From: an uncultured delta proteobacterium
GTDB lineage: Bacteria > Desulfobacterota > Binatia > UBA9968
Direction of reading: 5' to 3'
Assembly: GCA_963760795.1 (NCBI GenBank)
Contig: CAVXEP010000020.1
Span: 64,001 to 128,000 of the forward strand
Length of the DNA stretch: 64,000 bases
A program made the translations under genes and the position numbers. Below are positions 15,739 to 64,000 of the stretch, in pieces; positions within the stretch are counted from its first letter, which is position 1; each line of letters begins with the position of its first letter. The notes beneath the pieces are model-generated. The model was not told the DNA's origin. It saw only the letters and a list, made by a program, of their open reading frames with translations, and did no database searches.

Positions 15739-15963
15739 AACCGTTCCTCCTCTGACCGCAGTTTAGGCGATCATCTTGCCAAATAAGTTGCCAACGACTT
15801 CATGGCGCAAGCTAGACCTGCTGTCGCCTCGCTGTCAAGTATGGCCCCGGCAGCGCGAAAAACGGTCGCACTGAATTTTTCTTGCCAGTCGGCCGATTCA
15901 TGGTAAGGTCCGGCCAAATTAGCTGAGCGAAACCACCGCGGCAATTTTCTCGGGAGAAATATC

Positions 15964-22350: not shown

Positions 22351-22562
22351 GTCTGTTCTCACTTTCGATGGTTAACGCCGCAGGTTAGTCCTGCCGTTGG
22401 CTCCCTGTCAAGTTTTTCCTCCGCTGAGCATGACGCATTCGCGGTGGTGAAAACTGTTGCCTACCCATCGATTCGTGCTATGTTCCAGCCAAATTATTTC
22501 CCAGACGTGATGACGGCGGTGATCATTTCATCCTGCCATCCTTGCTCAAACGAGGAGGCCCT

Positions 22563-23725
22563 ATGCCCGGTGCACTAGATGACATTCGCGTGATCGATTT
22601 TACCCATGCTTTGAACGGCCCGTTCTGCACCATGCTGCTCGGCCATCTGGGCGCGGAGATCATCAAGATCGAACCGCCGGCGGCGACGGCTTTCGCCGGT
22701 CGTGGATGCCGCCCGACGCAAAGGTCGACGCTTACGAATTTCTCTGGATCAACGTCAACAAGAAGAGCGTCGTGCTCAATCTCAAAAGCGCTCAAGGCGC
22801 CGAGCTGGCGCGCCAGTTGATCGCCAAAGCCGATATCGTCGTCGAAAACTACCACACCGGGCAGATGGAGAAATTCGGCCTGGGCTACGAAGATTTGAAA
22901 AAGATCAACCCGCGCCTCATCTACTCTTGCACGCGCGGCTTCGGCGAGTCGGGTCCGTACAAAGACTACGGCAGCACGGCGCATACCAACAACAGCATGA
23001 CCGGCTGGACCCACACCGGCTGGGGCTACAACAAAGCGCCGGGCACCAAGGCGATCGGCATCGGCGACGAAGCCGCCGGCGTCAGCATGGTTTGCGGCAT
23101 TCTCGCGGCGCTGCATGCGCGGGAGAAATCCGGCGAAGGGCAAAGAATCGTCGTGTCGATGCAGGAAGCGCTGTTGGGTTTCATGATCAGCGAGTTTCAC
23201 GAGCATTTCGTCGGCATCGAAGTCGGCAACTATCCGGTGCCGGCGGCGGACGGTTATTTCACGCTGCGCATACCGGATATCAGCGACAGCGGCTGGGCAA
23301 AGCTCGCGAAATTAATGGAACGCGAAGATCTGCTCGCCGACCCGCGCTTCGCCGACGCGCCGGCGCGCAAGCAGAACCGCGGGCAATTGAACGACCTGAT
23401 CAAAGCCTGGGCGAAAACCAAAACCCGCCAGGAACTTTGGCAAGGACTGCGCCACATCGACTACTTCGGCGCGCCGGTGCTGTCGATGGGCGAAGTCATC
23501 GAAGACGAGCATATCAAAGAACGCAAAGCCTTCATCGACAGGAATCACCCAGTCGCCGGCCCAACCAAACTCTTGGCGCCGTGGATTCACATGTCGAAGA
23601 CGCCAGCCAGCATCCGCGACGACGCCCCGCTGCTCGGCCAGCACACCGATGATGTTTTGGCAAAAGTCTTGGGCTTGAGCGCCACGCAGTTAAGCGCCCT
23701 GCGCGCGGAGAACGTGATTAAATAA
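22563..23725 (+). CDS. Family III CoA-transferase (CaiB/BaiF), copy 2, one frameshift near 22680
   Basis: ATG after GGAGG; nearly identical N-terminus to copy 1 ([30 protein letters not shown]); IGDEAAG. Confidence 0.9.
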
Positions 23726-38666: not shown

Positions 38667-39423
38667 ATGAGCGGTTATAAAACATTTAGCGAATGATTTG
38701 ATCAGCGCATTGGAACTATCCCAGCCGCCGATTGCCATATCATTTTGCGACGCCCCACCGCCAAATGTTCCGGCTTTCAATGGCATGGTTCCGGCTGGTT
38801 GCTCTTTCTGGCAGCAGGCGGCGACGCGGATGTTTTTTACCTCGACGAAAGACCATGAGCTTTGCGCCATCGGCGTCCACACGCACCATATGTCGCAGCC
38901 TTCACCGTCGCATCAGTCCGAGCTCGGTGACGCGCTTGCGGCCATGAGTGGGTTGGATTACGTGCGCGCCGAGGAGGTCGCGGCGATCCCGGTGGTGCAG
39001 CGCGAAGTGAAGCATGTCGTCTATGGTCCACTAGCGGAATGGCGCAGCGACCCCGAAGTCGTGCTCCTATTCGCGCACGCCCAGCAGGGATTAATCGTCA
39101 GCGAAGCGGCCAGCCGCGTCGACAAGGGTATGCCGGCGGCGATGGGACGGCCCGCTTGCGCCGTCGTGCCGCAGGTGATCAATCAAGGCCGCGCGGCCAT
39201 GAGTCTCGGCTGCTGCGGCGCGCGCGCCTACCTTGACATTTTACCCGACAGCGTCGCCATGTGGGCGTTTCCCGGCAACAAGCTTGAGCAATACTGCGCC
39301 GAAATCGTCACTCTCGCCCGCGCCAACCAGACTCTCGCGGTGTTTCACGCGCGGCGCAAGCAAGATGTCGAAGCCGGCAAACATCCGACGGTGCGCCAAT
39401 CCCTCGATCGGCTGTCATCTTAG
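38667..39423 (+). CDS. DUF169 family protein, one frameshift near 38686
   Basis: ATG after AAGGAG; LELSQPPIAI, GCSFW, CAIG, RPACA, SLGCCGAR. Confidence 0.75.
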
Positions 39424-39493
39424 GGAAACATTCAGTCCGTTCGGACAATCTCGCGCAAAGACGCAACGCACAGAAAACAAAAGAGGCAAGCCG

Positions 39494-40575
39494 ATGAAGT
39501 TCGCCCACTTCTCCCATGTCTGGAACAAGCCCGGTATGAACGCGGCGGAGCGCTACGGGCAACTGTGGCGCGAATTAGCAGCGGCGGATGAGCTCGGTTT
39601 TGACTATGGCTTTTGCGTCGAGCATCACTTCAATCCGCGCGAAAGCTGGATGCCGTCGCCGTCGATTTACTGCGCCGCGGCTGCCGCCCATACCCGACGG
39701 CTGCGCGTCGGCACCATGGGCAATGTCGCGCCCCTTTACGATCCGTTGCGTATCGCCGAAGACGCCGCGGTGCTGGACAACGTCGCCAATGGCCGGTTTG
39801 AACTGGGACTCGTCTCCGGCATTGTGCCCGACTTCTTCGGCCCCTACGGCGCTGATTTTAATAATCGCCGCGCGCTCACTCACGAAGCGCTGCTCTGCAT
39901 CAAACAAGCGCTAGCGAGCCAGGGGCCGTTCAGCTTCAACGGGGAATTTCACCAGTACCAGAACGTCACGCTCGGAGTTAAGCCACTCCAACAGCCCCAT
40001 CCGCCGATTTGGATTCATTCGCGGGACGCCGACACTCTGGCGCTCCTTGCCCGCGAAGGCGTCCATACCGGATATCTTTTCTTGGTGCCGCGCGACGAGG
40101 TTGCGCCGCGCTATCGCGAATATTTACGCCTGTGGAAAGACAGCGGGCCACACCGGCGAAGCCCAACATCGGCTACTGGATTTTAGTGTATGTCGATGAG
40201 ACCGACGCCAAAGCCGTGGCGAAAGCCAAACCCTATTTCGAGCACTGTTTCACCAATGTCTTTGGCACCCGCGCGGACGGTGGCATCGGCTACCAGCGGC
40301 TGGCCGAGAATCACGAGAAACGCGGCAATCCCCGCGGCGCCGAGATCGCGCGCCACTCGATCGACGTCGAATATTTGCGAGAAAAGAATCTAGCCTTTGT
40401 CGGCTCGCCGAAAACTGTCATCGAACAGATCAAGCAAGCGGCCGGCGAGGGTGTATTCAACACCGTCATGGCCGAGTTCAACATCGGCGCCATCGCAGAA
40501 GAAGATTTAATGCGCTCGATCAAACTCTTCGGCAGCGAAGTCCTGCCGGCTTTGCGCGACTTCGAACCCTATTGA
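39494..40575 (+). CDS. LLM-class flavin-dependent monooxygenase, frameshift near 40150
   Basis: MKFAHF, ADELGFDYGFCVEHHF, PLRIAED..VLD, PLQQPHPPIW; C-terminus VGSPKTV...SIKLFGSEVLP in ORF 40009-40575. Confidence 0.87.
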
Positions 40576-51647: not shown

Positions 51648-52053
51648 CCTCAAGATCTTCTTCCTACTCGGATTGATCGGTGCTTTCCTACCGTGGCCGG
51701 CCTTTGCCGGCCACGGAGTCGAGGACACCGTCGACAATCTTACTGCTGACCGGGTGAAGCAGCTGCTCGATGCCGGTGAAAAGCTGACATTCATCGACAT
51801 GCGCCCGGCCAAGGAGTATCAGCAGACTCGCTTGCCGGGCGCCAAGTCACTGCCCATCGCCGAAGTCGCTAATCGATTCAGCGAGATTCCCAAAACCGGC
51901 CGGGTGGTTCTTTACTGCGACTGCAAGCCTTACGACGTCGCCGACCGCGCCGTCTTCTTGGAGTATCGCGGATTTCGTAACATATTCATCATGCCTGAAG
52001 GCTACGCCGGCTGGGTTAAACGGGGCTATCCACTAGAGAAGACACCGCGCTAA
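51625..52053 (+). CDS. Secreted rhodanese-like domain protein
   Basis: FIDMRP..EY...RLPGA, VVLYCDC, EGYAGW; hydrophobic leader ending AFA. Start uncertain. Confidence 0.85.
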   Translation: MTSGRRIDLKIFFLLGLIGAFLPWPAFAGHGVEDTVDNLTADRVKQLLDAGEKLTFIDMRPAKEYQQTRLPGAKSLPIAEVANRFSEIPKTGRVVLYCDCKPYDVADRAVFLEYRGFRNIFIMPEGYAGWVKRGYPLEKTPR

Positions 52054-52412
52054 TGATCAGGCCGGGGCTCGCCGTACTGCTGATATCGCTGTTGTTGCCA
52101 TCATCGCTATGGGCTCACGCCTATCTGGTCAAGTCGGCGCCTGCCCAGCGTGCCACGCTCTATCGCGCGCCAGCGAAAATCCAACTATGGTTCAACGAGC
52201 GCTTGGAACCGCGCTACTCGTCGTTCACCGTCAGCTCAGCCGACGGCAATTCGATTGAGACCATCAAAAGCGCCGTCGACGACCATGACGCCAAGCAAAT
52301 CTTCGCCGTGCTGAACCCGCTGCCGCCCGGCCGTTACCTGGTCAAATTCAGGGTCCTATCGGTCGACGGCCACGTCGTCGAAGATCAGTTTCCCTTCACC
52401 ATAAAGCGATGA
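52053..52412 (+). CDS. copC: Periplasmic copper-binding protein CopC
   Basis: Signal peptide then HAYLVKSAPA (N-terminal His), LWFNE, VLSVDGHV. Confidence 0.93.
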   Translation: MIRPGLAVLLISLLLPSSLWAHAYLVKSAPAQRATLYRAPAKIQLWFNERLEPRYSSFTVSSADGNSIETIKSAVDDHDAKQIFAVLNPLPPGRYLVKFRVLSVDGHVVEDQFPFTIKR

Positions 52413-54428
52413 GCGAACTCGCCGCGCTGGTTCGTTTCGTTCATTTGACAGCGGCGATCGTTCTCGCCGGCGGTTTCGGCTTTTGGCTGTTTGTCGCGCG
52501 GCCAACGTTTGCCAGCGCCAAGGATGCGTCGGCGGCGCTGGAACATTTTATCCAGCGTTCGCAGCTACGGAATTTTCGTTGGTGCGTTGCCGTCCTCAGC
52601 GTAACCATGCTGCTTGGCCTATGGCTGCAAGCCGCCAATGTGAGCGGCTCATCGCGCCCTACTCTCGGCGCGCTATTCCCCCTCGTGACGGAAACCCAAT
52701 TCGGCAGAGTATGGTTAACGCGCATGGCGCTGCTGATCGTCATCGCCGTCCTGGTCAAACGAAAACCAACGGCAAATGAACCGCCAAACCTACTAGCGCT
52801 CGGTTTCACACTCAGTGGCTGTCTATTGGCTGGGTTGGCCCTCGCTGGTCATGCCGCAGCCGCCGATGGTGCTGAGTTTGCGTTGCAGGTGTCCGCCGAC
52901 GCTGTGCATCTGCTCGCCGGCGGCGTCTGGCTAGGCGGTCTCGTGCCATTGGCTTTGCTGCTGCGCCAATGTAATCGAAACGATGATGCGGCGAACCTTG
53001 CGGCGGCCAGAGAGGCTACCCGGCGCTTTTCGAGCCTGGCCTTGGCGAGCGTAATCGTTCTCATCTGCACCGGCCTCTACAACACGTGGAATTTAGTCGG
53101 CGGTTTCGCGCCGCTGTTTGGCACAGCCTACGGTAAGCTCTTGCTGGTCAAGCTCGGACTGCTTCTGCCGCTGCTCGCCATCGGCGCGGTAAACTTATTG
53201 CGGCTCAAACCGACAATCGTCGCGTCGAGCGACCGCGCAGGAGCAACCACCGGCGCGCTACGAAGCCTGAGCCGCAACGTCATCATCGAAGTTTTGCTCG
53301 GCCTTGCCATTTTGCTGATCGTCGGCCACATGGGCGTCACGCCGCCGGCGCGCCATGTTCCACCCGATTGGCCCTTGTCATTTCGCTGGGATTGGACGGT
53401 TCTTGAAAAAGCGCCGAGGGCGTTTGCCGAAGTTCAACGCGGCGCGATCTGGTTCACGATTGGTGCCATTGCGCTCATCGGCGGGATTTTCCAGAGACGA
53501 AAACGGCTTATTGCAACAATGATTGGCATTGGCGCGATGGCTTACGCGATCAATCTCGTGCACCAGGCGGTGCTGATCGATGCTTACCCTGACACCTACA
53601 AACGGCCGGCCGTAGCCTACCAAGCGATTTCCGTAGCCAACGGCGCAGCGCTCTATCAAGATAGCGGTTGCGCCGCTTGCCACGGCGACGGCGGTCACGG
53701 CGACGGCCCGGTGGCAGCCGAACTCAACCCTCCGCCACCCGATCTTACCGGCCGCCACGCCAACGCCCACACCGCCGGCGATCTGTACTGGTGGTTGAGC
53801 TACGGCGTCAAACCGGCTTCGGCGATGCCGGGGTTCAGCCAAAGCTTGAGCGATGAAGAGCGCTGGGATTTGATCAATTATTTGCGCGCGCTTGCCAGCG
53901 GCGAGCGCGCCCGCAATCTTGGCTCCGATAATCGACGACAACGCCTGGTTGGTCGCGCCGGATTTCAATTACGGCACATCCACGGGAGAATCGCGAACGC
54001 TCAAAGACCATCGCGGCGACAAGATCGTCCTGCTCGTCCTGCTCAATTTAGCAGCCACTGAAAAACGCTTGCAACAACTCGCCATCAGCTTGCCTCAACT
54101 CAGGGCCGCTGGCGTCGAAGTGATCGTCGTCCCAAACCTGATCGATTACCTTTACGTCGCCAATAAACTCCCCGGCCTGATTGTCAACGAAGGAATCAGA
54201 GAAATCACCGAAACCTATAAACTGTTCGCTCGCTCGTTTAGTGATGAAAACCTGATCACAACCACACCTCATGTCGAATTTCTAATCGACAAACAAGGCT
54301 ACATCCGCGCCCGCTGGTTGCCCGCCGAGAGCGAAGCTTGGAGCAAAATCGCAGGTCTTCTGTCGCAAGTAGAATTACTCAGGAATGAAAAGCCGCGCGC
54401 TGCCGCGCCGGACGATCATGTGCACTAA
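52409..54428 (+). CDS. copD: CopD copper uptake membrane protein fused to cytochrome c and a thioredoxin-fold domain, one frameshift near 53920
   Basis: TQFGRVW, AGHAAA, HLLAGGVWLGGL, RRFS, YGKLLLVK (CopD); CAACH haem motif with AMPGF; then APDF...LKDHRG.KIVLL...EFLIDKQGYIRARW, ending DDHVH. Confidence 0.85.
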
Positions 54429-54510: not shown

Positions 54511-55020
54511 CTACAAGAACACGCTGATATTTTTCGCGTCCAGCACCGCTTGATCGAGGATGATCGTGCGCCGGGCGATTTTGAAGGTCGCCGCCGCGCG
54601 CCGCAGGATATCCTGGCGCGTGCCGACGAAGATATCTTTGTCGCTTTCCTGGCGCGTGCGGTAGACAAGGAAATTCGAATGGGCTTCGATTTGCTCGCCG
54701 TCGTCTTTCTTAATACGGATGTTGGTAATCAGGTGGCGCGTGCGCGACGGCGGCACTTCCGCCCAGGCGATTTTGGAATAGGCGCGCTCGACGCGGATCT
54801 TCAAACTCTGCCAATCGTCGTTGAAATAATAGGCGTCGCCGGGCTGGGAAAGCTCGTCGCTGACACTTTCAGGCCGCTCCAGCGTGTTGTGCCGTAGCGG
54901 CATCCAGTAACGAATGTCTTCGGTCAGCAGCTCGAACCACTCGCGCAGCTTGCGCTCGTCGAGCAGCTCGGCTTCGAGGTAATAAAAATCCTCGACTTGG
55001 TGGCGCAGCTGGCTATCCAT
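54511..55020 (-). CDS. Aromatic ring-hydroxylating dioxygenase beta subunit
   Basis: FYYLEAELLD, IRYWMP, WAEVPPSRTRHLITN, KNISVFL. Confidence 0.92.
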   Translation of the reverse strand: MDSQLRHQVEDFYYLEAELLDERKLREWFELLTEDIRYWMPLRHNTLERPESVSDELSQPGDAYYFNDDWQSLKIRVERAYSKIAWAEVPPSRTRHLITNIRIKKDDGEQIEAHSNFLVYRTRQESDKDIFVGTRQDILRRAAATFKIARRTIILDQAVLDAKNISVFL

Positions 55021-56296
55021 TGGACTCGCTCGCAACCTCGCGCCAATTTTTCGCTTGCAACAGCTTGGCCCAATGCATGTACAGGCTCAGCTGATTGTTG
55101 TCGCTGAAGCGGCTTTTCACGCGTCCCGGCAGATCGATTTCCACCGGCGGCTCGTTGCCGCGCATCTGATAGTTGGCCGGAAAACGCTGGCCGATCAGGC
55201 TGCGCGCCGCGCCGGTGACTTGAATCCAGTTGTCCATGTCATCCTGCTCAAAGACTCCCGACGGACTGAAACGGTACTGCGCCACGAAGCGCATGACATC
55301 CTTGATCTTCGGCGAAGCCGCTTTGTCGACGATCGCCCAGCTCCAGATCTCCATCTTGTCCGGCCCGCGCGGCTGCCAGACGCGTATCGTCCGCGTCAGC
55401 CAGTGCACCGAGAGATTGGGGAAAACCGTTCCCGCCGACGGGGAAATCTGCCGCGCCCGCTTGGTTCCTAAACGGCTTTCAATTTCAACTTCGTGCTCTT
55501 TCATGTAGTCGGCGAGCTGATCATCCGGCTGAGCAAACCACGGCCCGCTGTCCGGCGGCGTCAGCCAGGAGACTAGAATATGGCCGTTGTCGCAGGCGAT
55601 CTGACAGCCTTTGTTCCATTGGCGGGTTTTGCTGGTGGTCGTGTCGATGCCCAACTCGCGAGCCGAGCCATGAGTCGAGGCGATGTGGTAACCGTCGCCA
55701 CCGAAATTTTCCGCGGCGGTCTTCCAGTTGGCGTCGACTACCCAGCGCTGCGGACCGCTTACCTCCGTGCCGCCCTCGCGGCGGTCGAGGAGAATGTCCA
55801 AATACCAGGCCATGTCACCGAGATAATCGCATAGCGACGGCGCTTCGGGATCGAAGGTCGCGAAGATCAGTCCCTTGTAACTGTCGACCTGCGCCACCGA
55901 AACCAAGCCCCACTGCGAGCGATCGAGATTGCCGAAAGTGTCGACCATCGGCACCAGCGCGAGTTTGCCATCGGTGGTGTATGACCAGCCATGATACGAG
56001 CATTGAAATAATTTGGTATTGCCGCGGTCGGCGCGGCACACCCGATTGCCGCGATGGCGGCACATGTTTAAATGCGCGCGCAGTTGGCCGTTTAAGTCGC
56101 GCGCTAAAATCACCGGGTCTTCGCCCATGTAGCGGGTGACGAAATCGCCGGGGTTGGGTATCTCACACTCGTGGCCGAGGTAAAGCCAGCAGCGCGCAAA
56201 GATCCGCTCGCGTTCCAAATCGTAGATCTCCCGGTCGGCGAAGATCCGCCGATCGATGAGACCGCCTTCCGGGTCGACGAGTGATTTGATGTCCAT
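55013..56296 (-). CDS. Rieske aromatic ring-hydroxylating dioxygenase alpha subunit (phenylpropionate/biphenyl-like group)
   Basis: CRHRG...CSYHGW Rieske motif; NWK..AENF.GDGYH...TH mononuclear Fe site; FEQDD. Confidence 0.93.
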   Translation of the reverse strand: MDIKSLVDPEGGLIDRRIFADREIYDLERERIFARCWLYLGHECEIPNPGDFVTRYMGEDPVILARDLNGQLRAHLNMCRHRGNRVCRADRGNTKLFQCSYHGWSYTTDGKLALVPMVDTFGNLDRSQWGLVSVAQVDSYKGLIFATFDPEAPSLCDYLGDMAWYLDILLDRREGGTEVSGPQRWVVDANWKTAAENFGGDGYHIASTHGSARELGIDTTTSKTRQWNKGCQIACDNGHILVSWLTPPDSGPWFAQPDDQLADYMKEHEVEIESRLGTKRARQISPSAGTVFPNLSVHWLTRTIRVWQPRGPDKMEIWSWAIVDKAASPKIKDVMRFVAQYRFSPSGVFEQDDMDNWIQVTGAARSLIGQRFPANYQMRGNEPPVEIDLPGRVKSRFSDNNQLSLYMHWAKLLQAKNWREVASESNG

Positions 56297-56569: not shown

Positions 56570-58102
56570 ATGGCTACCAAAGAAACCAACCTAAGTCGCC
56601 GGCGTTTTCTGCAACACAGTACCACGCTCAGCCTCGGGGCTCTGATCGGGCCAGCCCTTGGAGGGAATGCGCTCGCGGCGTCCAGAGAGCGGGTCGTCAT
56701 CTATCAAGGCGTCAGCCTCGACTCGCTCCATCCCTACGGCTACAGCGGCGGCGGCATCAACGGCATCTGGCTCCATCTGATCGAGCCGCTGATCGTCATG
56801 GACTACACCCGGCAAAAATATGTCGGCGTGCTCGCCGACTCGTGGGAGTTCCAAGGACGACGCTGGATATTCCAGCTCAGAAAAAACATCCGCTTTCACA
56901 ACGGCGCGCCGTTCACATCGAAAGACGTGGCCTATTCGATCGAGCGCATGAAAACCGACAAGCGCAGCCTTCAGGGCGGCGACATCTTGGAGCTAGAAGT
57001 TGAAACGCCCGACGATTTCACCGTGGTTTTCAACACCAAGCAGCCACTCTCGCTGCTGCTCGACCGCCTGGACACGCGCTACATCATCAGCAAAGCCGCT
57101 GCGGAAAAATACGGCGACCAAGCCGACAACTACGCCATCGGCACCGGCCCCTATAAATTTGTCAGCTGGCAGCGCGGCGGCAACCTGGTCTTGACGCGCA
57201 ACGACGACTATTGGGGCGCCAAGGCGGAGATCAAGGAAGTCATCTTGAGAGGCGTAAAAGAAGAGGCAGCGCGGGTCGCCGGCCTGCTGTCAGGCCAGGC
57301 CGACGTGGTCAGCAACCTGCCCATCGAAGAAATCGATCGAGTAGCGAAACATCCGCGCGTCCGGGTCGAGAAGATTCCCGGCTTTCGCATGTATTTCGTC
57401 GCCATGAACTTCGCCCATAAACCTTTCGACAACAAGTTGGTGCGCCAAGCGATCAACCACGCCATCGATCCGGCGCCGATGATGAAACATGTCTTTTCCG
57501 GCAACGGCCAGGTGCTCAACGGCCCGCTGGCGGCGAACATGACCGGCTTCGACCCGGCGATGAAACGCTATGCCCACGATCCCAAGAAAGCCCGCGAGCT
57601 GCTCGCCCAGGCCGGCTATCCAAACGGCTTCGAAATCAAGCTGCATTTCTCGCCCGACCGTCATCTCAAGGGCCGAGAAGTCTGTGAAGTGATCGGCGAT
57701 CAGTTGGCAAAAGTCGGCATCAAAATCGAATTGGTCGGCCAGGAGTACGCCGTCTACTGGGGCAGGGATGGCGTCAACGGCGGCAAGCTGCCCTTCTACT
57801 ACGCCGGCCGCACCGCCTCCGACGCCGACACTTTCTACGATCAATACTTTCACACCGGCATCACCAAGCGCATCGGCTACAGCAACCCGGAGGCCGACAA
57901 ACTCATCGAAGAGCAACAGCGCACCGCCGATCAGAAAAAACGCGTGACGATCTTGCAGCAAGCTGGCCGCCTGATCATGGAAGACGCGCCCTTCGTGCCC
58001 CTCTACACCCTATCGGAAATTTACGGCGTGGCGAAAAATGTCATCTGGAAAGGCACACCCGACAACCGTATCCTCGCTGCGGAGATGAAGATCAGAGGGT
58101 GA
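56570..58102 (+). CDS. Tat-exported ABC substrate-binding protein, family 5 (peptide/nickel)
   Basis: SRRRFLQ Tat motif; LRKNIRFHNG, IGTGPYKF, PFDNKLVRQAINHAID. Confidence 0.92.
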   Translation: MATKETNLSRRRFLQHSTTLSLGALIGPALGGNALAASRERVVIYQGVSLDSLHPYGYSGGGINGIWLHLIEPLIVMDYTRQKYVGVLADSWEFQGRRWIFQLRKNIRFHNGAPFTSKDVAYSIERMKTDKRSLQGGDILELEVETPDDFTVVFNTKQPLSLLLDRLDTRYIISKAAAEKYGDQADNYAIGTGPYKFVSWQRGGNLVLTRNDDYWGAKAEIKEVILRGVKEEAARVAGLLSGQADVVSNLPIEEIDRVAKHPRVRVEKIPGFRMYFVAMNFAHKPFDNKLVRQAINHAIDPAPMMKHVFSGNGQVLNGPLAANMTGFDPAMKRYAHDPKKARELLAQAGYPNGFEIKLHFSPDRHLKGREVCEVIGDQLAKVGIKIELVGQEYAVYWGRDGVNGGKLPFYYAGRTASDADTFYDQYFHTGITKRIGYSNPEADKLIEEQQRTADQKKRVTILQQAGRLIMEDAPFVPLYTLSEIYGVAKNVIWKGTPDNRILAAEMKIRG

Positions 58103-58119: not shown

Positions 58120-58192
58120 TGGAGTGATGGAGTTCTGGAGTACTGGAGGGAGGAACCGTCTGACCCATCACTCCAACACTCCATTACTCCAA
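58120..58192. repeat. 8-bp periodic (tggagtNN)n repeat with an inverted copy (NNactcca)n
   Basis: tggagtga tggagttc tggagtac tggag ... catcactccaacactccattactccaa between convergent genes. Confidence 0.8.
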
Positions 58193-59680
58193 CCTAAGCA
58201 TTTGTCCCAACGCGAGGCCGAACGGCGCGGCGTGAACGCCGTACTGGCTAAAGTCATTGGCGAATGCGCACAGCGCCCAGTGCGCCGCGTCGCGATACTT
58301 GGCGTCCTTCGTCGCTTGAGCCAAATGAGAGAAAGAACGAAGCCGCGGTGCCGTTCTGTTCGATCAAAGTTAACCGAAGTCGGAGCGAAGCCGAATCCGG
58401 CGTGCAAATATCGTAGAAACCGCCGGCCGGGTTTTTCAGTTCTGATAAAATGAACGCCGCCAACCGTCGCGCCCGATCCACGTATGTCACCATCTCCCGT
58501 CACTTGGTAGGCGCGCAACAACGCGCTGCCCATCTGCGCTTGATCCTGCAGCAGCCCTGGCACATGCGCCGCGCCGTCGAAGTAGTGAAACATCCCGCCG
58601 CCATCGCTGCGGCAGTTCTGCCAGAGAAACTCCAGCGCGGCGAGCCCTCGCTCGCGGTAAGCCGGTTGGTCTAATAACACCGCAGCATCGAGATACGCCG
58701 CGCTGGCAACCCCGTTCGCGTCGGTGTAAATGCAGCGATCGATGATCGTGAAGAATTCCTCGCCATCGACGGCCGGCGGTTCATAACGCAACCAATCTTC
58801 GCAGCCGTGGAAAGTTCCGCTCGCCGGATCGAAAAGCCTGGCATCCAAGTACTCAATAATCTCCTCAGCCATGCGCCGGTATTCCGCCCGCTGAGTGATA
58901 CGAAATACAGACAAGCAATTGGCCAACAGCCCGGCCTCTTCCAACAGCAATTTTTCCCGGTGCGGATGGCTCCAGTCCGGGTTGGAAGAAGTGCGAAAGT
59001 AGGCGCCGCCTTGCTGATCGTAAAGCTCACCTGCGCGCATGCGCTCAAGAGTCAAACAAACCTGATCGAGATATTGCGTGTCGTCGGTCGCTTGATACCG
59101 CGCCAGCAAAAAATCATTAACTTGGGGATGGATAAATTTCTGCCCACGATCGTAACCGCCGTAGGAACGGTCCGCCAGCGCCATTACGCTCGCGGTGATC
59201 TCCGAAAGATTCGTTGCCAACTCCGCCTCATCCAACTGTCGCGCCGGCTCAGGCGTCGACTCTTCCGGTAGCTTGAGCCGCGGCACGAAGCTCCTCTTTG
59301 CGCTGCTGGTAGCTCATGTACACATCGATGAGCAATTCTTTGAACTGATCCGTCGGCAAATAATTTACGGCCGCGAGCAACTGCCCAGCGGGCGTCATGA
59401 AGGCGATGGTCGGCCAGCCGTTCAAGTTGTAACGCGCATCGACGTCGGGCCGCTGGGCATACTCGACCCGCAGCGGAATGAAGTAAGCATTCAAGAGTGC
59501 GATGTTTTCAGTCTCAGAAAACGCTTGCTCATCCATACGCTGGCAGAACCGGCACCAGAACGCCGACAAGTAAAGCATAACAGGTTTGTCCTCGGCGTGG
59601 GCCGCGCGGAAGGCCGCGTCGCCCCATTCATGCCAGGGGATGATATGAGCTTGGTTGGGAAGCGGTGAGAAACGGATCAC
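58184..59680 (-). CDS. Thioredoxin-domain (DUF255)/YyaL-SSP411 family protein, about three frameshifts (near 59275, 58487, 58330)
   Basis: PWHEWG..AF..A..EDKP, WCRFC..M, RPDVD.RY..GWPT; D..YGG, LYDQ.GG.YFR, PH.EK.L, LQDQA, GGFYD; manual C-terminus ...ALGQMLRLE*. Confidence 0.8.
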
Positions 59681-59780
59681 GGTTTTGAATGACCTCTGTT
59701 AATCTGCCTAGCTTTTAGCACTTTTCACCTTCGCGAAGAAAGGCCATAAACTAGTTCGTGGTTCAGTTTCGAATGTAACC

Positions 59781-59959: not shown

Positions 59960-61237
59960 ATGCAGTTGACCCTTGCAGTCCATCCAATCACCGACATTCA
60001 ATTCGGCACGCGCTTGTCGCTCGACGGCAGCGCGCTTACGGTCGATGGCGAGGAATTGCGCCGCTTGGTGTTGGAAGATGCGGCCATCGATAGCGTCGCT
60101 TTCGACATCGTCCGTCCCGGCGAGAGCTGCCGCGCCGGGCCGATCTTCGATGTCGTCGAGCCGCGCGCTAAAGCCGACGGCGGCAGCGACTTTCCCGGCA
60201 TCATTGGCGCGCCGACTACCGCGGGGATGGGAACGACTCATGTACTCGCCGGCGCGGCGGTCTCGATCCTCGCCGAAATGTCCCCCGACCCGTCGCGCAG
60301 CGCCACCGGACGGGTGTTGGAGATGAGCGGCAGCGCCACCGCCGGCAGCGCATATTCAAAACTTTGTCATCTCTTGGTGGTACCGCAGACAAAATCAGGA
60401 TTGCCGCGCTCGGCGGTGTTAAAAGCCTACCGCGTCGCCAGCGTCAAAGTCGCCGTGCGTCTAGCCCGCGCCGCGCTTGCGCAGGCACCGGCGTCCACAC
60501 AGACGTTTGAGCCCATCGGCGCCGAAGACAAGAGCCGCGAAGGGTTGTCCCGGGTCGTTTATATCGGGCAGATTTTTTCGCGCCAGCGCAAACCGGCGGT
60601 GGACGAGCCGATTATTTATGGAACCAATACCGACGGCATGCTGCCGGTAATTTTACATCCCGACGAATGGCTCGATGGCGCGCTGGTGCCGTCGCTCAAC
60701 TCCTGGTTTGGCGGCACGGAGACTTATTTTTATCAAAATCACCCGGTGGTTCTCGATCTCTACCGGCGCCACCACGCGCGCGAGATAAACTTTGTCGGCA
60801 CCGTGGCCACCGTCGCCGGCAACGACAATGTCGACCGGGTAAGGCAGTGCCACGCCGCGGCGAATTTAGCCAAGTGGAACCTGCGCGCCGACGGCGCCGT
60901 GATGACCAAGTACGGCGGCGGCTTGCCCCACGCCGACCTGTCGGAGACCGCGCGCTTGTTGGAACATATGGGCATCAAAACCGCCGTCATGGTTTCCGAC
61001 GTGGCGCGCGACCGGCGCGTCGAATCGGCGCTCTTGTTCAACGTCCCTGAAGTCAACGCCATCGTCTACAACGGCGGCAACGGCACCGAATATGAAATTC
61101 CCAAAGCCGCCCGCGTCATCGCCGCCAAACCGGAACTGGCCGCGCTGCTTGCCGGACCCATGACGATAGATGCCAACAACATCATCGGCGTCACCAACCA
61201 GCAGGGCGCGTCGCGAATGAAATCGTTAGTCTATTGA
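59960..61237 (+). CDS. Glycine/sarcosine/betaine reductase component B proprotein-like (GrdE/GrdG/GrdI family)
   Basis: DIQFG, RPGES.R..PIFDVVEPR.K, FPG, THVL.GAAV, LHPDEWLDGA, YQNHP..DLY..H..EINF.G, GIKT, G.TN. Confidence 0.88.
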   Translation: MQLTLAVHPITDIQFGTRLSLDGSALTVDGEELRRLVLEDAAIDSVAFDIVRPGESCRAGPIFDVVEPRAKADGGSDFPGIIGAPTTAGMGTTHVLAGAAVSILAEMSPDPSRSATGRVLEMSGSATAGSAYSKLCHLLVVPQTKSGLPRSAVLKAYRVASVKVAVRLARAALAQAPASTQTFEPIGAEDKSREGLSRVVYIGQIFSRQRKPAVDEPIIYGTNTDGMLPVILHPDEWLDGALVPSLNSWFGGTETYFYQNHPVVLDLYRRHHAREINFVGTVATVAGNDNVDRVRQCHAAANLAKWNLRADGAVMTKYGGGLPHADLSETARLLEHMGIKTAVMVSDVARDRRVESALLFNVPEVNAIVYNGGNGTEYEIPKAARVIAAKPELAALLAGPMTIDANNIIGVTNQQGASRMKSLVY

Positions 61238-61301
61238 AGAAAACGCGAGGCATGAGTAGAAATCCGAACTCGCGCTTCATGCCTGTATGAAGGAGCTAAG
61301 T

Positions 61302-62585
61302 ATGCGCATCGTTTACTACGTCAATCAATTTTTCGGCGGCATCGGCGCGGAAGAACATGCCGGCGCGCCACTGGAATTTCGCGACGGCGCATTGGGGCCA
61401 GCGAAGTTGTTCGAACAGCTCATGGGCGAAGATACGACGGTAACCATGACAATCGTCTGCGGTGACAATCATGCCGTCGAACATCAAGACCAGGTAACCG
61501 CGGCGGTGTTGGAGAAGGTTCGCGCCACCGGCGCGGATCTCTTCGCCGCCGGTCCCTGCTTCGATGCCGGCCGTTACGGCATGGCCGCCGGCGCAATCTG
61601 CAGCGCCATACAGAGCGAGTTGGGGATTCCCGCGATCACCGCGATGCACGTGGAGAATCCCGGTGTCGATCTTTTCCGCGAGCAGCTTCACATCGTCGAC
61701 TCGGGGAACAGTATCGCCAAGATGCGCGATATCATCGCCACCATGGCAAAGCTCGGCAAAAAACTCGTCGCCAAGCAACCCATCGGGCTGCCGGCCGAGG
61801 AAGGCTATATCAGCCGCGGCCTGCTGCGCGATCAACTCGGCGACAAGACCGCGGCCACGCGCATGATCGATATGCTCATAGCCAAAATGAACGGCGAAAA
61901 GTTCGATTCCGAAATGCTGCCGAACGCGTTCGCGCCCGTGCCGATGCCGGCGCGGATTAAAGACATGTCGAAAGCCAAGCTGATGGTTATCACCGACGGC
62001 GGGCTGGTGCCCAAGGGGAATCCCGACAAGATCGAAGGCACTGCGGCGACTCGTTGGGGCGCCTATAACATCGAAGGCAGCGATGATTTACGCAGTGAGG
62101 ACTACGAAGTCTCGCACGGCGGCTACGATACGCGATTCGTCCAGGACGATCCCGACCGTTTGGTACCCCTCGACGCCCTGCGCGAGCTGGAAAAGAGCGG
62201 CGTCATCGGCAAACTGCACGAGGAGTTTCTCTCCACCTGCGGCCGTTCCAATCCGCTCTCGAACACCCGCCGACTGGGACGGGAAATGGTGGAAAAAATC
62301 AAGCGCGACGGCGTCGACGCGGTGATCCTCACGTCAACTTGAGGCACCAGCACTCGCAGCGGCGCTGCGATCACCACCGAACTCGAAAAGGCCGGCATCC
62401 CGGTCGTGCAAATCACCTCCGCGCTGCCGATCGCCAAAATGGTCGGCTCCAACCGCGTCGTTTTAGGCACTGGAATTGTCCATGTGACTGGCGACGCCAA
62501 GTTACCGCTGAAGGATGAAAAAGAGCTGCGCCGCAAGCTCGTCCAACAAGCCCTCGACGCGTTGCAGTCGAATGAGAAACAGTAG
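61302..62585 (+). CDS. grdB: Glycine/sarcosine/betaine reductase selenoprotein B-like (Sec at TGA 62340-62342)
   Basis: MRIVYYVNQFFGGIG, CGDN, AGP.F.AGRYG, ENPG, TDGGLVPKGNPD, HGGYD, DPDRLVPLD, VDAVILTST-UGA-GTSTRSGA...EKAGIPVV...VGSNR; 80 in-frame codons follow the UGA before TAG. Confidence 0.9.
62354..62370 (+). promoter_or_regulatory. Bacterial SECIS-like hairpin
   Basis: TCGCAGC-GGC-GCTGCGA; the apical loop starts with G, 18 nt after the UGA. Confidence 0.75.
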
Positions 62586-62640
62586 CAGGCGGCTGTAAAA
62601 CTCACATCTTCGGCGCGTTCCCAATGACAAGAAGACTTTT

Positions 62641-62716
62641 ATCACGAAGGCACGAAGGACACGAAGTTTCGCAAATTAAATCTCTTACCTTCGTGATCTT
62701 CGTCCTTACGTGGTGA
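62641..62716. repeat. (cacgaagg)n periodic repeat with an inverted copy
   Basis: atcacgaaggcacgaaggacacgaag ... cttcgtgatcttcgtccttacgtggtga between convergent genes. Confidence 0.75.
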
Positions 62717-62725
62717 GTCTTAGGA

Positions 62726-64000
62726 TCATCCCTTGGCTGCGATTTCGTCCAAAACCGGTAGCAGATAGCTTCGGAACACTTCGTAGTTCTCCGTCATCGG
62801 GAAGTGGCCTAGCCCTTTCATCTCGACAAACTTCGATCCTTTGATGTGCTCTGCGAGCGCGCGGGTTTCGATCGGCGAATTGCCCCAATCATACTCACCG
62901 GTCAGTAAGTAGACGGGAATCTTCGAAGTGTCGATTTGTGCCGCCTTTTCCTCCGTCAGCCCGTGATCGATGAAGTTGTAGTACAGATCGCCCTTGGAAA
63001 CCGACGGCGAGCTTTGGCCGTAGATCCAGGCAACCTCGCGGCGGTAGGTTTCTGGATTGCCCGGTGCGGTCTTGCCGTACATGGTCGCCATGCGCATCTC
63101 GTTGCCGATACGCGGGTGATCGTGGAAATCGAGCGAACGAGCCATGCTGTATTTGCTCGCGCCCGATTCAAGCCCGACCACGGCACGGAACTTATCCGGA
63201 TGCTCTAGCGCCAGATTTATCGCCAACCGGCCACCGATCGAGCAACCGACATAAACGGGTTGTGTCAAGTGCAACGCGCCGCTGATCGCGATTTGGCACT
63301 CGACAAAAAAACTTCGCGTCAATTTATATTCCTGCTTCCACCACTCGACACTTTCCGGCGGCGACGACTTGCCGTGGTAGGGGATATCGGGAACGATGAC
63401 ACGAAAGCGCCGGGTAATTTCCTCGTCATTCAAGAGATGGCGCCACTGCCGGCCATCGGACGCCGCGGTGTGCTGGCAGAGCAGCGGAATGCCTTGGCCG
63501 TTTTCTTCAAAATAAATCCGGTATTCAATCCCCAAGATGTCCACGTGGAGGTATCTGCCGACAATCGCCTCGCATCCCCCTCGATCGAATTTCGCCGCCG
63601 GGCCGGACTGAATCGTCGATCCGGTTTGGCACTCCCGAAAAATATCGAGCATGCGATTCACGGCCCAAAAGTGTGCGAACATCGCTTCGATGTCGCCGCC
63701 GACGTCGAAATGCCGGCGCGCCATCAGGCCCGACAGGTCGGAAAAATAGGCTGGCGGCTGTCGCTGTAAAAACTTCTCCCACGCCGCCGCCGAACCCTTG
63801 ATGAAAAAACTCCAGGGATTCATGAACGTGGGATTGAGCTGAATTTGGGTGACGATACCGTCACGCAGCTTGACGATACACTCGGCGTCGTCAACCGCCA
63901 AAAGAATGTCTTTGGAAAAAAAACGGCTGGCGCGGCAAAACTCTCGGTCGTTGTTTAGGGTGTGACACACCCGGCCGATTTGGTCTTGTTGAAGAAAGCA
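62726..64000 (-). CDS. Alpha/beta hydrolase with N-terminal SCP2-like domain (5' end may lie beyond the window)
   Basis: HTAASDGRQW, DIPYHGKS, GCSIGG nucleophile elbow, LTGEYD, LGHFP; the frame stays open to position 64000. Confidence 0.85.
   Translation of the reverse strand, partial: CFLQQDQIGRVCHTLNNDREFCRASRFFSKDILLAVDDAECIVKLRDGIVTQIQLNPTFMNPWSFFIKGSAAAWEKFLQRQPPAYFSDLSGLMARRHFDVGGDIEAMFAHFWAVNRMLDIFRECQTGSTIQSGPAAKFDRGGCEAIVGRYLHVDILGIEYRIYFEENGQGIPLLCQHTAASDGRQWRHLLNDEEITRRFRVIVPDIPYHGKSSPPESVEWWKQEYKLTRSFFVECQIAISGALHLTQPVYVGCSIGGRLAINLALEHPDKFRAVVGLESGASKYSMARSLDFHDHPRIGNEMRMATMYGKTAPGNPETYRREVAWIYGQSSPSVSKGDLYYNFIDHGLTEEKAAQIDTSKIPVYLLTGEYDWGNSPIETRALAEHIKGSKFVEMKGLGHFPMTENYEVFRSYLLPVLDEIAAKG

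What the first reader, a model, noticed from the sequence alone, without database searches (positions are those of the whole stretch)
61302..62585. Hidden selenoprotein: GrdB-like gene reads through UGA
Seen: the ORF track stops at ...VDAVILTST (TGA 62340-62342), but the same frame continues for 80 codons with GrdB-like sequence (EKAGIPVV, VGSNR, EKELRRKLVQQALDAL). A G-loop hairpin lies 18 nt downstream. Known: GrdB/F/H carry Sec in STUGT, and bacterial SECIS elements sit just 3' of the UGA. Unlike the other broken genes here, this is an in-frame stop and not an indel.
Basis: partly seen in the sequence, partly recalled or inferred. Interest (0 to 1): 0.75.

Follow-up and report, generated by a model that had tools for sequence, protein, structure and literature searches.

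The report
Selenocysteine UGA in GrdB-family reductase gene
The apparent stop codon inside this gene is almost certainly read as selenocysteine, making the gene a genuine member of the known selenoprotein B reductase family, in a subgroup whose substrate is not known.

Summary
TGA at 62340-62342 interrupts a 427-codon frame (61302-62585), and the 80 codons after it are still under protein-coding selection. Read through, the protein matches NCBIfam TIGR01918, "reductase selenoprotein B", end to end (473 bits, cutoff 65). The TGA aligns with the Sec of P. acidaminophilum GrdF and E. gilvus GrdH (STUGT).

The same codon is TGA in 74 of 74 intact orthologues from other genomes, mostly Candidatus Binatia plus Dehalococcoidia/SAR202. 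A 17-nt hairpin (62354-62370, loop GGC) starts 11 nt after the UGA and meets the published bacterial SECIS model. Its synonymous sites are frozen (GCT 75/75, GCG 75/75). The same hairpin in grdF/grdH keeps pairing through two compensatory changes.

- **What differs:** this clade has U-x-x-S-x-x-S instead of UxxCxxC. Its GrdE-like partner lacks the pyruvoyl-forming Cys. It scores below the GrdB, GrdF and GrdH cut-offs. It is usually linked to a DUF255 thioredoxin-fold gene. FarB/FarE is a published precedent for the first two traits.
- **What could not be checked:** the Sec machinery. No sel genes or tRNA-Sec lie in the window, and the genome was not available.

The parts
61302..62585 (+). grdB-like selenoprotein B gene: 427 codons including UGA347, ending at TAG 62583-62585
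   Evidence: translation. Pfam PF07355, 439.6 bits over residues 1-346. TIGR01918, residues 2-424 of 431 profile positions, 473 bits against a cutoff of 65.45.
62340..62342 (+). In-frame UGA, proposed Sec347 in the context ILTST-U-GTSTRS
   Evidence: TGA in 74 of 75 loci that cover the site. The exception, L067, is a 22-nt deletion; the codon aligns with U350 of GrdF and the Sec of GrdH.
62354..62370 (+). Proposed bacterial SECIS hairpin: 7-bp stem with a 6-bp conserved core at 62355-62369 and a GGC loop at 62361-62363
   Evidence: synonymous sites are frozen; the lowest synonymous entropy in the whole gene lies at codons 350-357; the 6 core pairs form in 38 of 38 sequences, and 2 pairs carry compensatory changes; delta-G is -9.9 kcal/mol.
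61290..61295 (+). AAGGAG ribosome-binding site 6 nt before ATG 61302
   Evidence: Read from the sequence. The orthologues start at the equivalent Met.
59960..61237 (+). grdE/grdG-like partner subunit gene, 425 aa, ending in a genuine TGA stop at 61235-61237
   Evidence: Pfam PF09338, 248 bits. GrdG 181 bits and FarE 149 bits, both far below their cut-offs; this gene lies immediately upstream on the same strand in 59 of 65 loci; it lacks the Asn-Cys processing site.
58187..59749 (-). DUF255 thioredoxin-fold gene with a WCRFC motif. It is a conserved neighbour, but here it is broken by three frame changes.
   Evidence: PF03190 and Thioredoxin_7; frame changes at about 59266, 58485 and 58300 relative to the intact L004 orthologue; found within 7 kb in 42 of 52 loci. 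W-C-x-x-C in 44 of 49 ORFs.

Best explanation
**Shown or strongly supported (about 0.93).** The gene at 61302-62585 encodes a 427-residue member of the glycine/betaine/sarcosine/D-proline reductase selenoprotein B family. UGA347 is decoded as selenocysteine rather than stop. The signal is a 17-nt hairpin (UCGCAGC-GGC-GCUGCGA, 62354-62370) that begins 11 nt after the UGA inside the coding sequence. In bacteria this kind of hairpin is bound by SelB carrying Sec-tRNA(Sec).

**Inferred (about 0.6).** Together with the GrdE-like protein encoded just upstream, it forms a substrate-specific 'protein B'. The selenol would attack the alpha-carbon of a small carboxylate substrate. The carboxymethyl-type group would then pass to selenoprotein A (GrdA) and GrdC. 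Both of these are encoded next to the same gene pair in 7 related loci but are not in this window.

**More speculative (about 0.3).**
- The clade has Ser in place of both Cys of UxxCxxC, and its GrdE-like subunit has no Cys at the pyruvoyl-forming site.
- This suggests the subunit is not processed, and that the substrate needs no Schiff base. Candidates would be a quaternary ammonium compound or another compound with a good leaving group, as in betaine reductase or FarB/FarE.
- The linked DUF255 thioredoxin-fold protein (WCxxC) may supply the thiol or the reducing equivalents.

The confidence value given for this explanation refers to the first, core claim (Sec decoding in a selenoprotein B family member).
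For: **Family membership**
- Full-length match to TIGR01918 (473 bits, cutoff 65.45) and to PF07355.

**Sec position**
- The UGA aligns with U350 of P. acidaminophilum GrdF. The RefSeq CDS for that gene spans its TGA. It also aligns with the Sec of E. gilvus GrdH.

**Conservation of the stop**
- All 120 best homologues among 5.8 billion proteins cover only 81% of the query, and 118 of the 120 are exactly 346 aa. They are cut at the same codon.
- In 77 genomic loci, 75 span the site. 74 have TGA and 1 is a deletion allele.

**Translation continues past the UGA**
- Per-site entropy at codon positions 1/2/3 is 0.405/0.227/1.182 downstream, against 0.553/0.369/1.296 upstream.
- The stretch between the UGA and the first possible restart (GTG 62406) is invariant at the protein level in 39 of 39 sequences.

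**SECIS**
- Codon use: GCT 75/75, GCG 75/75, AGC 75/75, CGC 74/75. Flanking four-fold codons have 1.1-1.7 bits.
- Of 132 conserved four-fold columns in 66 genes, the four lowest entropies are at codons 355, 356, 352 and 354. The sliding minimum lies at codons 350-357.
- The hairpin sits in the same register in grdF, grdH, an A. noterae homologue and the L033 paralogue. C-G becomes U-A and A-U becomes U-A.

**TGA is otherwise a stop here**
- 33 of 55 Pfam-supported ORFs in the window end in TGA, including the grdE-like gene.

**Second Sec gene in relatives**
- grdA has TGA at C-F-V-U in 7 related loci, next to a GrdC homologue. The one GrdC scanned (L045) scores 629 bits against a cutoff of 450.

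**Variant features**
- U-G-T-S-T-R-S is invariant in 39 of 39 aligned clade members, against UGTCTRC in GrdF and GrdH.
- The GrdE-like segment has no Cys where GrdG has SGNCVAPC.
- FarB/FarE is described with the same two departures (passage of PMC10838667).
Against: **Sec machinery.** None could be shown for this organism.
- There is no tRNA in the window.
- There are no SelA, SelB or SelD domains among 72 ORFs.
- tblastn with E. coli SelA, SelB and SelD found nothing in 1.34 Mb of window plus loci, apart from GTPase-domain hits that proved to be TypA.
- This is weak evidence, because only 64 kb of the genome was visible.

**Hairpin energy.** It is not exceptional.

**Covariation.** It rests on only 4 sequences outside the clade, which means one or two evolutionary events. 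Inside the clade the stem is invariant, which by itself does not prove pairing.

**Rfam.** There was no match. I am not aware that Rfam holds a bacterial SECIS family; that is recalled, not checked.

**Partners missing here.** grdA and grdC are absent from this window and from 45 of the 50 loci that have at least 5 kb on both sides. Dependence on GrdA is therefore an inference.

**DUF255.** The gene is multiply frameshifted in this window. This could mean an error-prone assembly or a decaying locus.

**GrdE-like processing site.** The alignment there has a gap, and a Ser lies nearby. Serine-based pyruvoyl formation cannot be excluded.
Confidence: 0.92

Rival explanations
1. The TGA is a nonsense mutation or a sequencing or assembly error, so the gene is a pseudogene in an error-prone or decaying region.
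For: The window holds several split genes. The adjacent DUF255 gene has three frame changes. ABC_sub_bind and luciferase-like genes are in pieces. One related locus, L067, carries a 22-nt deletion at this very place.
Against: The same codon is TGA in 74 of 74 intact orthologues at 59-94% protein identity. Canonical grdF and grdH also have TGA there. The gene has no indel, and coding constraint continues after the TGA.
Confidence: 0.02
2. UGA terminates translation. The functional product is the 346-aa N-terminal protein, with or without a separately initiated C-terminal peptide, so this would be a split gene.
For: Gene callers produce exactly this 346-aa product everywhere. A GTG at 62406 opens a 59-aa ORF. 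Some termination at Sec codons is expected when selenium is scarce; this is general knowledge, recalled.
Against: Codons 348-368 lie before any restart codon, yet are invariant at the protein level in 39 of 39 sequences and show third-position-biased variation. The catalytic motif itself begins with the UGA. The family profile and Cys-type homologues are continuous across the site.
Confidence: 0.03
3. UGA is read through as an ordinary amino acid (Trp, Cys or Gly), by a reassigned genetic code or by near-cognate suppression, not as Sec.
For: One database entry, P0122, translates the codon as W. No Sec machinery was seen.
Against: TGA is the commonest genuine stop in the window, ending 33 of 55 Pfam-supported ORFs including the gene immediately upstream. 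A conserved SECIS-type hairpin sits in the canonical position. Related loci have a second TGA at the GrdA Sec site. P0122 looks like a code-4 gene-calling artefact; that is my inference.
Confidence: 0.03
4. A rival about function: it is simply an ordinary glycine, sarcosine or betaine reductase protein B, with a pyruvoyl subunit and the usual mechanism.
For: The best family scores are GrdF 483, GrdH 439 and GrdB 429 bits. It shares 44% identity with P. acidaminophilum GrdF. grdC and grdA are adjacent in 7 related loci.
Against: All three substrate-specific models are far below their cut-offs of 800, 775 and 602. Only 1 of 5 elements of the published GrdB motif and 1 of 5 of the GrdF motif are met, while GrdF itself meets 5 of 5 (motifs from PMC9751293). 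Both Cys of UxxCxxC are Ser. No Cys lies at the GrdE processing site. Betaine-type chemistry, with an unprocessed GrdI, remains compatible.
Confidence: 0.15

Closest known systems
GrdF/GrdB/GrdH, the selenoprotein B subunits of sarcosine, glycine and betaine reductase (Peptoclostridium acidaminophilum, Enterococcus gilvus)
   Same: - Same length and domain, 39-44% identity over 99% of the protein.
- Sec sits in the same ILTST-U-GT context.
- The SECIS hairpin has the same register and a GGN loop.
- The gene is preceded by a PF09338 partner gene.
   Different: - It scores below the curated cut-offs of all three.
- It has UGTSTRS instead of UGTCTRC.
- It fails the GrdB and GrdF motifs.
- No trxB-trx-grdA-grdC-grdD genes flank it in this window, whereas E. 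gilvus has the whole set.
- Its hosts are Binatia and Dehalococcoidia, whose loci also carry oxygenase genes, not Stickland fermenters.
FarB/FarE, the fluoroacetate reductase protein B of Cloacibacillus (Synergistota), PMC10838667
   Same: The paper states that farB lacks the CxxC after Sec, and that farE lacks the cysteines for pyruvoyl processing, like grdI (passage). The same two departures are seen here.
   Different: - The FarE model scores only 149 bits against a cutoff of 675.
- No radical-SAM or antiporter gene is among the conserved neighbours.
- No FarB sequence was available, so direct comparison was not done.
PrdB/PrdA, D-proline reductase
   Same: It is homologous over the C-terminal half (TIGR04483, 89 bits, residues 219-423). 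It is a Sec enzyme that works with a GrdE-like partner.
   Different: PrdB is about 240 aa and scores below its cutoff of 300 here. The PrdB-type representatives seen keep the Cys at +6 (P0228 and P0262). The review lists UxxC as the PrdB motif.
Bacterial SECIS consensus model (bSECISearch model as summarised in PMC13188914)
   Same: All four criteria are met: loop of 3-9 nt, stem of 4-16 bp, G in the first two loop positions followed by G, spacing of 16-37 nt (here 18), MFE at or below -7.5 (here -9.9).
   Different: The stem is short and the triloop minimal. There is no bulged U as in E. coli fdhF (recalled, not checked here).

Membership tests
Reductase selenoprotein B family (NCBIfam TIGR01918 / Pfam PF07355) | Profile score above the curated cutoff over the full length | tested here: met
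   TIGR01918: 473.1 bits against 65.45, residues 2-424 on profile positions 1-423 of 431. PF07355: 439.6 bits against 22.
Reductase selenoprotein B family (NCBIfam TIGR01918 / Pfam PF07355) | In-frame UGA at the position of the catalytic Sec (S-T-U-G-T) | tested here: met
   Aligned with U350 of GrdF and the Sec of GrdH. TGA in 74 of 74 intact orthologues.
Reductase selenoprotein B family (NCBIfam TIGR01918 / Pfam PF07355) | CxxC following Sec (the UxxCxxC motif named in PMC13188914) | tested here: not met
   U-G-T-S-T-R-S is invariant in 39 of 39 clade members. GrdF, GrdH and the A. noterae homologue have UGTCTRC. This feature defines the canonical enzymes, not the HMM family. FarB also lacks it.
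Reductase selenoprotein B family (NCBIfam TIGR01918 / Pfam PF07355) | Adjacent gene for the GrdE/GrdG/GrdI-type partner subunit (PF09338) | tested here: met
   The gene at 59960-61237 matches PF09338 at 248 bits. It lies immediately upstream on the same strand in 59 of 65 loci.
Reductase selenoprotein B family (NCBIfam TIGR01918 / Pfam PF07355) | Selenium actually incorporated at residue 347 | not testable with these tools
   Needs 75Se labelling or mass spectrometry.
Glycine-specific GrdB (TIGR01917) | Equivalog cutoff, and the GrdB motif of PMC9751293 | tested here: not met
   429 bits against a cutoff of 602.2. 1 of 5 motif elements met.
Sarcosine-specific GrdF (NF040794) | Model cutoff, and the GrdF motif of PMC9751293 | tested here: not met
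   482.7 bits against 800. 1 of 5 motif elements met, while the positive control, P. acidaminophilum GrdF, meets 5 of 5.
Betaine-specific GrdH (NF040795) | Model cutoff | tested here: not met
   439.3 bits against 775.
Bacterial SECIS element | Stem-loop just 3' of the UGA that meets the consensus model (loop 3-9 nt with G in its first two positions, stem 4-16 bp, spacing 16-37 nt, MFE at or below -7.5) | tested here: met
   Loop GGC, stem 6-7 bp, spacing 18 nt, MFE -9.9. Criteria taken from passages of PMC13188914.
Bacterial SECIS element | Selection on the RNA beyond the protein code, and covariation | tested here: met
   The lowest synonymous entropy of the gene lies at codons 350-357. 2 of 7 pairs carry compensatory changes, and the core is paired in 38 of 38 sequences. 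The covariation comes from only 4 sequences outside the clade.
Bacterial SECIS element | Binding by SelB, and dependence of read-through on the hairpin | not testable with these tools
   Needs a reporter or binding assay.
Sec-decoding organism | selA, selB, selC (tRNA-Sec) and selD present in the genome | not testable with these tools
   The genome was not available. None was found in the window or in 1.34 Mb of window plus 77 loci. Indirect support: grdA has TGA at its Sec site in 7 related loci.
FarB/FarE fluoroacetate reductase | FarE equivalog score; radical-SAM and antiporter genes in the operon | tested here: not met
   FarE scores 148.9 bits against 675. No such neighbours were found. 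The two motif losses are shared.
Pyruvoyl-dependent protein B (GrdE/GrdG proprotein) | Asn-Cys self-cleavage site | tested here: not met
   GrdG has SGNCVAPC. The window has PSLNSWFG, and no clade member has a Cys in this segment. The alignment has one gap, and processing at a Ser is not excluded.

The most novel reading that the evidence does not exclude
The window's gene pair may represent a widespread but undescribed class of Grd-type 'protein B', found in soil and ocean bacteria (Binatia, SAR202/Dehalococcoidia, Acidobacteriota).
- It keeps the catalytic selenocysteine but has lost both the CxxC next to it and the pyruvoyl-forming cysteine of its partner.
- It is genetically tied to a DUF255 thioredoxin-fold protein instead of thioredoxin and thioredoxin reductase.
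- It would reductively cleave a carbon-heteroatom bond of a substrate that needs no Schiff base, such as a quaternary ammonium, sulfonium or halogenated acetate.
- It would do so in organisms whose surrounding genes point to aerobic metabolism.
- An invariant Cys86 (GPCF[DE]AGRYG), absent from GrdF, could be a relocated resolving thiol.
Probability: 0.3. Interest if true: 0.6.

Novelty: new member of a known kind. Interest (0 to 1): 0.35.

Why it matters
**Annotation.** Every automatic gene call of this clade in the large protein collections is cut at residue 346. The catalytic residue and an 80-residue conserved tail are therefore missing from almost all database entries. Only 3 proteins among 5.8 billion carried the C-terminal part.

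**Biology.** The result places selenocysteine use and a glycine-reductase-type enzyme in Candidatus Binatia and SAR202-type Chloroflexota. My searches of the held literature found no paper that links these groups with selenoproteins. Glycine reductase in serpentinite Dehalococcoidia has been reported (PMC9751293). The motif filter used in that study would have excluded this clade.

**Possible new chemistry.** The loss of CxxC and of the pyruvoyl site, shared with the fluoroacetate reductase FarB/FarE, hints at a substrate other than glycine or sarcosine. If so, this would be an uncharacterised reductive C-X cleavage that is common in soils.

Tried and rejected
- **Rfam:** a scan of 61000-62900 at E up to 10 gave only chance matches below the gathering scores.
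- **Folding energy:** the 71 nt after the UGA are not distinguishable from shuffles. Energy was dropped as an argument.
- **PDB by sequence:** no hit for either subunit. No structure was predicted, because the tool returns no coordinates and the question of interest (the Cys86-Sec347 distance) could not have been answered.
- **The 'TGC' at the Sec position in L067:** it looked like a Cys orthologue, but it is an artefact of a 22-nt deletion and a frame shift.
- **Search for Cys-type or full-length relatives using the C-terminal 103 residues:** it found only 3 proteins. These were a TGA=W mistranslation, a Bathyarchaeota Cys form, and a 281-aa deltaproteobacterial fragment with C at the site.
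- **SelB-like tblastn hits in L057 and L061:** these are TypA.
- **tRNA-Sec:** none in the window or in the 77 loci.
- **ORF clustering:** it undercounted GrdE-like and DUF255 neighbours, because long antisense ORFs displaced true genes. The counts were redone with tblastn.
- **Complex prediction for DUF255 with the GrdB-like protein:** not run. Adjacency alone is not reason enough, and the read-through protein is not a table-11 product.
- **Whole-genome check for sel genes and for grdA/grdC/grdD in the complete Binatia chromosomes:** not possible.
- **Supplements:** those of PMC9751293 (Fig. S6 tree, Table S5) and PMC10838667 (Fig. S4, SECIS of the grdB genes) were not opened. They may already show this clade or a comparable hairpin.
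Full report
**What is in the sequence**

The ORF that starts at ATG 61302 runs to TGA 62340-62342 (...VDAVILTST). An AAGGAG lies 6 nt upstream of that ATG. The ORF finder's ATG at 61287 has no such site, and the orthologues start at the equivalent of 61302. The same frame stays open for 80 more codons to TAG 62583-62585. Read with TGA=U, the product is 427 residues with U347 in the context ILTST-U-GTSTRSGAAITTELEKAGIPVV. The window is 57.7% G+C with no N.

**Family**

- The N-terminal 346 residues match Pfam GRDB PF07355 (439.6 bits).
- The read-through protein matches NCBIfam TIGR01918, 'glycine/betaine/sarcosine/D-proline family reductase selenoprotein B'. The match covers residues 2-424 on profile positions 1-423 of 431, at 473 bits against a cutoff of 65.45.
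- It stays far below the substrate-specific models: GrdF 483 against 800, GrdH 439 against 775, GrdB 429 against 602.
- The gene just upstream (59960-61237) is a PF09338 'component B subunit' protein of the GrdE/GrdG type (248 bits). It ends in a genuine TGA stop.
- Neither protein has a sequence relative in the PDB copy.

**Is the TGA real and conserved?**

- A search of 5.8 billion proteins returned 5867 hits. All 120 listed cover only 81% of the query, and 118 of the 120 are exactly 346 aa. Gene callers stop at the same codon everywhere. One hit is named by NCBI 'selenoprotein B [Candidatus Binatia...]'.
- Among 1.84 billion cluster representatives, 1616 match. Only 9 of the 150 listed extend past residue 347.
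- A search with residues 325-427 found only 3 proteins that carry the tail. These were a TGA=W mistranslation, a Bathyarchaeota form with Cys, and a 281-aa fragment with C at the site.
- In GTDB genomes, 77 loci encode a relative at 59-94% identity. Most are Candidatus Binatia or 'delta proteobacterium' MAGs. Others are Dehalococcoidia/SAR202, an Acidiferrales MAG and a Udaeobacter MAG.
- 75 of the 77 loci span residue 347, and 74 have TGA there. The one 'TGC' (L067) is an artefact: a 22-nt deletion removes the VILTST-UGA codons and shifts the frame. So 74 of 74 intact orthologues keep TGA.
- In the window, TGA is otherwise the commonest true stop, ending 33 of 55 Pfam-supported ORFs. This excludes a reassigned code.

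**Is the tail translated?**

This analysis used 66 intact, unique full-length genes. Nine of 75 were left out because of frame shifts, short upstream frames or odd tail lengths: L010, L021, L025, L029, L039, L062, L069, L071, L072. The mean per-site entropy at codon positions 1/2/3 is 0.405/0.227/1.182 after the UGA and 0.553/0.369/1.296 before it. The pattern is the same, so the tail is under protein-coding selection in this frame. Residues 347-357 are invariant in 39 of 39 aligned sequences. They lie upstream of the first possible restart codon (GTG 62406).

**The hairpin**

- *Position and shape.* UCGCAGC-GGC-GCUGCGA occupies 62354-62370. The stem starts 11 nt after the UGA and the loop 18 nt after it. 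Delta-G is -9.9 kcal/mol, or -8.0 for the 6-bp core.
- *Published model.* The bSECIS model is quoted in passages of PMC13188914: loop 3-9 nt, stem 4-16 bp, G in the first two loop positions, spacing 16-37 nt, MFE at or below -7.5. The hairpin meets all four points.
- *Chance.* 18 of 1892 TGA triplets in the window (0.95%) have a comparable perfect hairpin. Energy alone is not distinctive.
- *Frozen synonymous sites.* In 75 unique sequences of 76, the hairpin codons are CGC 74/75, AGC 75/75, GCT 75/75 and GCG 75/75. The loop codon is GGC 69/75. Neighbouring four-fold codons have 1.1-1.7 bits.
- *Gene-wide comparison.* Across the whole gene, the four lowest of 132 conserved four-fold columns are codons 355, 356, 352 and 354. 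The two lowest of 76 two- or three-fold columns are 353 and 350. The minimum of an 8-codon sliding mean is at 350-357 (0.16 against a gene mean of 0.71).
- *Comparison outside the clade.* I then fetched named reference genes from the plasmid collection: P. acidaminophilum grdG-grdF, the E. gilvus trxB-trx-grdA-grdC-grdD-(B subunit)-grdH operon, and an A. noterae homologue. They carry the hairpin in the same register, as CGUUGC-GGN-GCAACG.
- *Pairing test.* I aligned 38 sequences: the window, 33 of the 63 other unique clade sequences, and 4 from outside the clade. The 6 core pairs form in 38 of 38. Two pairs change on both sides: C-G to U-A in 3 sequences, and A-U to U-A in 4. The outer U-A pair forms in only 26 of 38. 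No shuffle of 500 reached the observed covariation score, and slid registers pair in 12-57% of cells.
- *Caveat.* The compensatory changes come from four sequences, which is one or two events.

**What differs from the textbook enzymes**

- GrdF, GrdH and the A. noterae protein have U-G-T-C-T-R-C. The review calls this the UxxCxxC motif.
- The window and every clade member have U-G-T-S-T-R-S.
- The other relatives I could see keep Cys at +6. The exception is P0230, which also has Thr at the Sec position.
- The GrdE-like partner has PSLNSWFG where GrdG has the processing site SGNCVAPC. No clade member has a Cys there. The alignment has one gap and a Ser is nearby.
- The protein meets 1 of 5 elements of the published GrdB motif and 1 of 5 of the GrdF motif. 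GrdF itself meets 5 of 5 (motifs from the Methods passage of PMC9751293).
- A passage of PMC10838667 describes the same two losses in the fluoroacetate reductase FarB/FarE, and says the unprocessed state resembles betaine GrdI. However, the FarE model scores only 149 bits against 675 here.

**Neighbourhood**

- By tblastn, the GrdE-like gene lies directly upstream on the same strand in 59 of 65 loci that have enough sequence.
- A DUF255 thioredoxin-fold gene lies within 7 kb in 42 of 52 loci. It is about 520 aa and has W-C-x-x-C in 44 of 49 ORFs.
- In this window, that DUF255 gene has three frame changes.
- E. gilvus GrdA and GrdC find homologues beside the pair in 7 and 8 loci respectively. 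This is 5 of the 50 loci that have at least 5 kb on both sides.
- All 7 grdA genes have TGA at C-F-V-U-T.
- The GrdC homologue of L045, the one scanned, passes the equivalog cutoff (629 against 450).
- No GrdD, GrdX or TrxB-type neighbour was found.
- L033 carries a second protein-B pair (UGSSTRC) behind one grdC-grdA. This is the 'several B proteins feeding one A/C system' layout described in PMC10838667.
- The window itself has none of grdA or grdC.

**Sec machinery**

- There is no tRNA in the window, and no tRNA-Sec in the 77 loci.
- No SelA, SelB or SelD domain appears in 72 window ORFs.
- tblastn with E. coli SelA, SelB and SelD found no hit in 1,335,357 bases, except GTPase-domain matches that are TypA.
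- The second conserved Sec gene (grdA) in related lineages is indirect support.

**Verdict**

This is a genuine selenocysteine codon with its SECIS element, in a member of a known selenoprotein family. It is mis-called as a 346-aa protein by ordinary gene finders.

It is not a new kind of system. The subgroup is nevertheless distinct: no CxxC, no pyruvoyl Cys, its own place below the GrdB, GrdF and GrdH cut-offs, and DUF255 linkage. It is widespread in Binatia and SAR202-type bacteria.

The held literature does not discuss this subgroup, as far as my searches show. Searches returned 0 papers. One search returned 1 paper, seen only in the listing. One search returned 5 papers, of which I read passages of PMC9751293. 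Its substrate and its reductant are inferences, not results.

Noticed in passing
window 58187-59749 (-): The DUF255 thioredoxin-fold gene next to the grd pair changes frame three times (about 59266, 58485, 58300) relative to the intact 519-aa orthologue in L004. This means either assembly indels or a decaying gene.
   Followed up: partly
window 21366-22362 (-), 39233-40575 (+), 16361-17146 (+), 22706-23725 (+): Other genes appear split or truncated: ABC_sub_bind in two ORFs, luciferase-like monooxygenase in two ORFs, a thiolase C-terminal part only, and a CoA-transferase lacking its first ~50 profile positions.
   Followed up: no
L019, L022, L024, L027, L033, L045, L058 (e.g. L022 6505-8548): grdC and grdA lie beside the grdE/grdB-like pair. 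grdA carries an in-frame TGA at C-F-V-U-T, a second selenoprotein gene. No GrdD homologue was found nearby.
   Followed up: partly
L033 13503-16140: A second, 45%-identical protein-B pair lies downstream of the first. It has TGA at 15889, the motif U-G-S-S-T-R-C, and a hairpin with a U-A compensatory pair.
   Followed up: partly
L067 about 10380-10400: A 22-nt deletion removes the codons VILTST-UGA and shifts the frame. This is a broken allele or an assembly error in that MAG.
   Followed up: yes
proteins P0141, P0151, P0152, P0226: These cluster representatives of about 774-798 aa carry the GrdB part at their C-terminal end, stopping at the Sec position. They are apparently GrdE-GrdB fusions truncated at UGA.
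   Followed up: no
window residue C86 of the GrdB-like protein (61557-61559): Cys86 in GPCF[DE]AGRYG is invariant in 39 of 39 clade members, while P. acidaminophilum GrdF has Ala there. It is a candidate relocated thiol, given the loss of the CxxC.
   Followed up: no
window 54511-56296 (-), 52053-54061 (+), 56570-58102 (+): The grd pair sits among Rieske dioxygenase alpha and beta subunits, CopC/CopD-cytochrome c genes and a family-5 solute-binding protein. The solute-binding protein recurs upstream in 15 loci. Oxygen-dependent enzymes next to a Grd-type reductase are unusual company.
   Followed up: partly
L057, L059, L061, L064, L065, L072: In the Dehalococcoidia/SAR202-type loci the DUF255 gene lies downstream of grdB. 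In L057 the order is grdB-DUF255-grdE, and in L057, L059 and L061 no grdE lies directly upstream of grdB.
   Followed up: no
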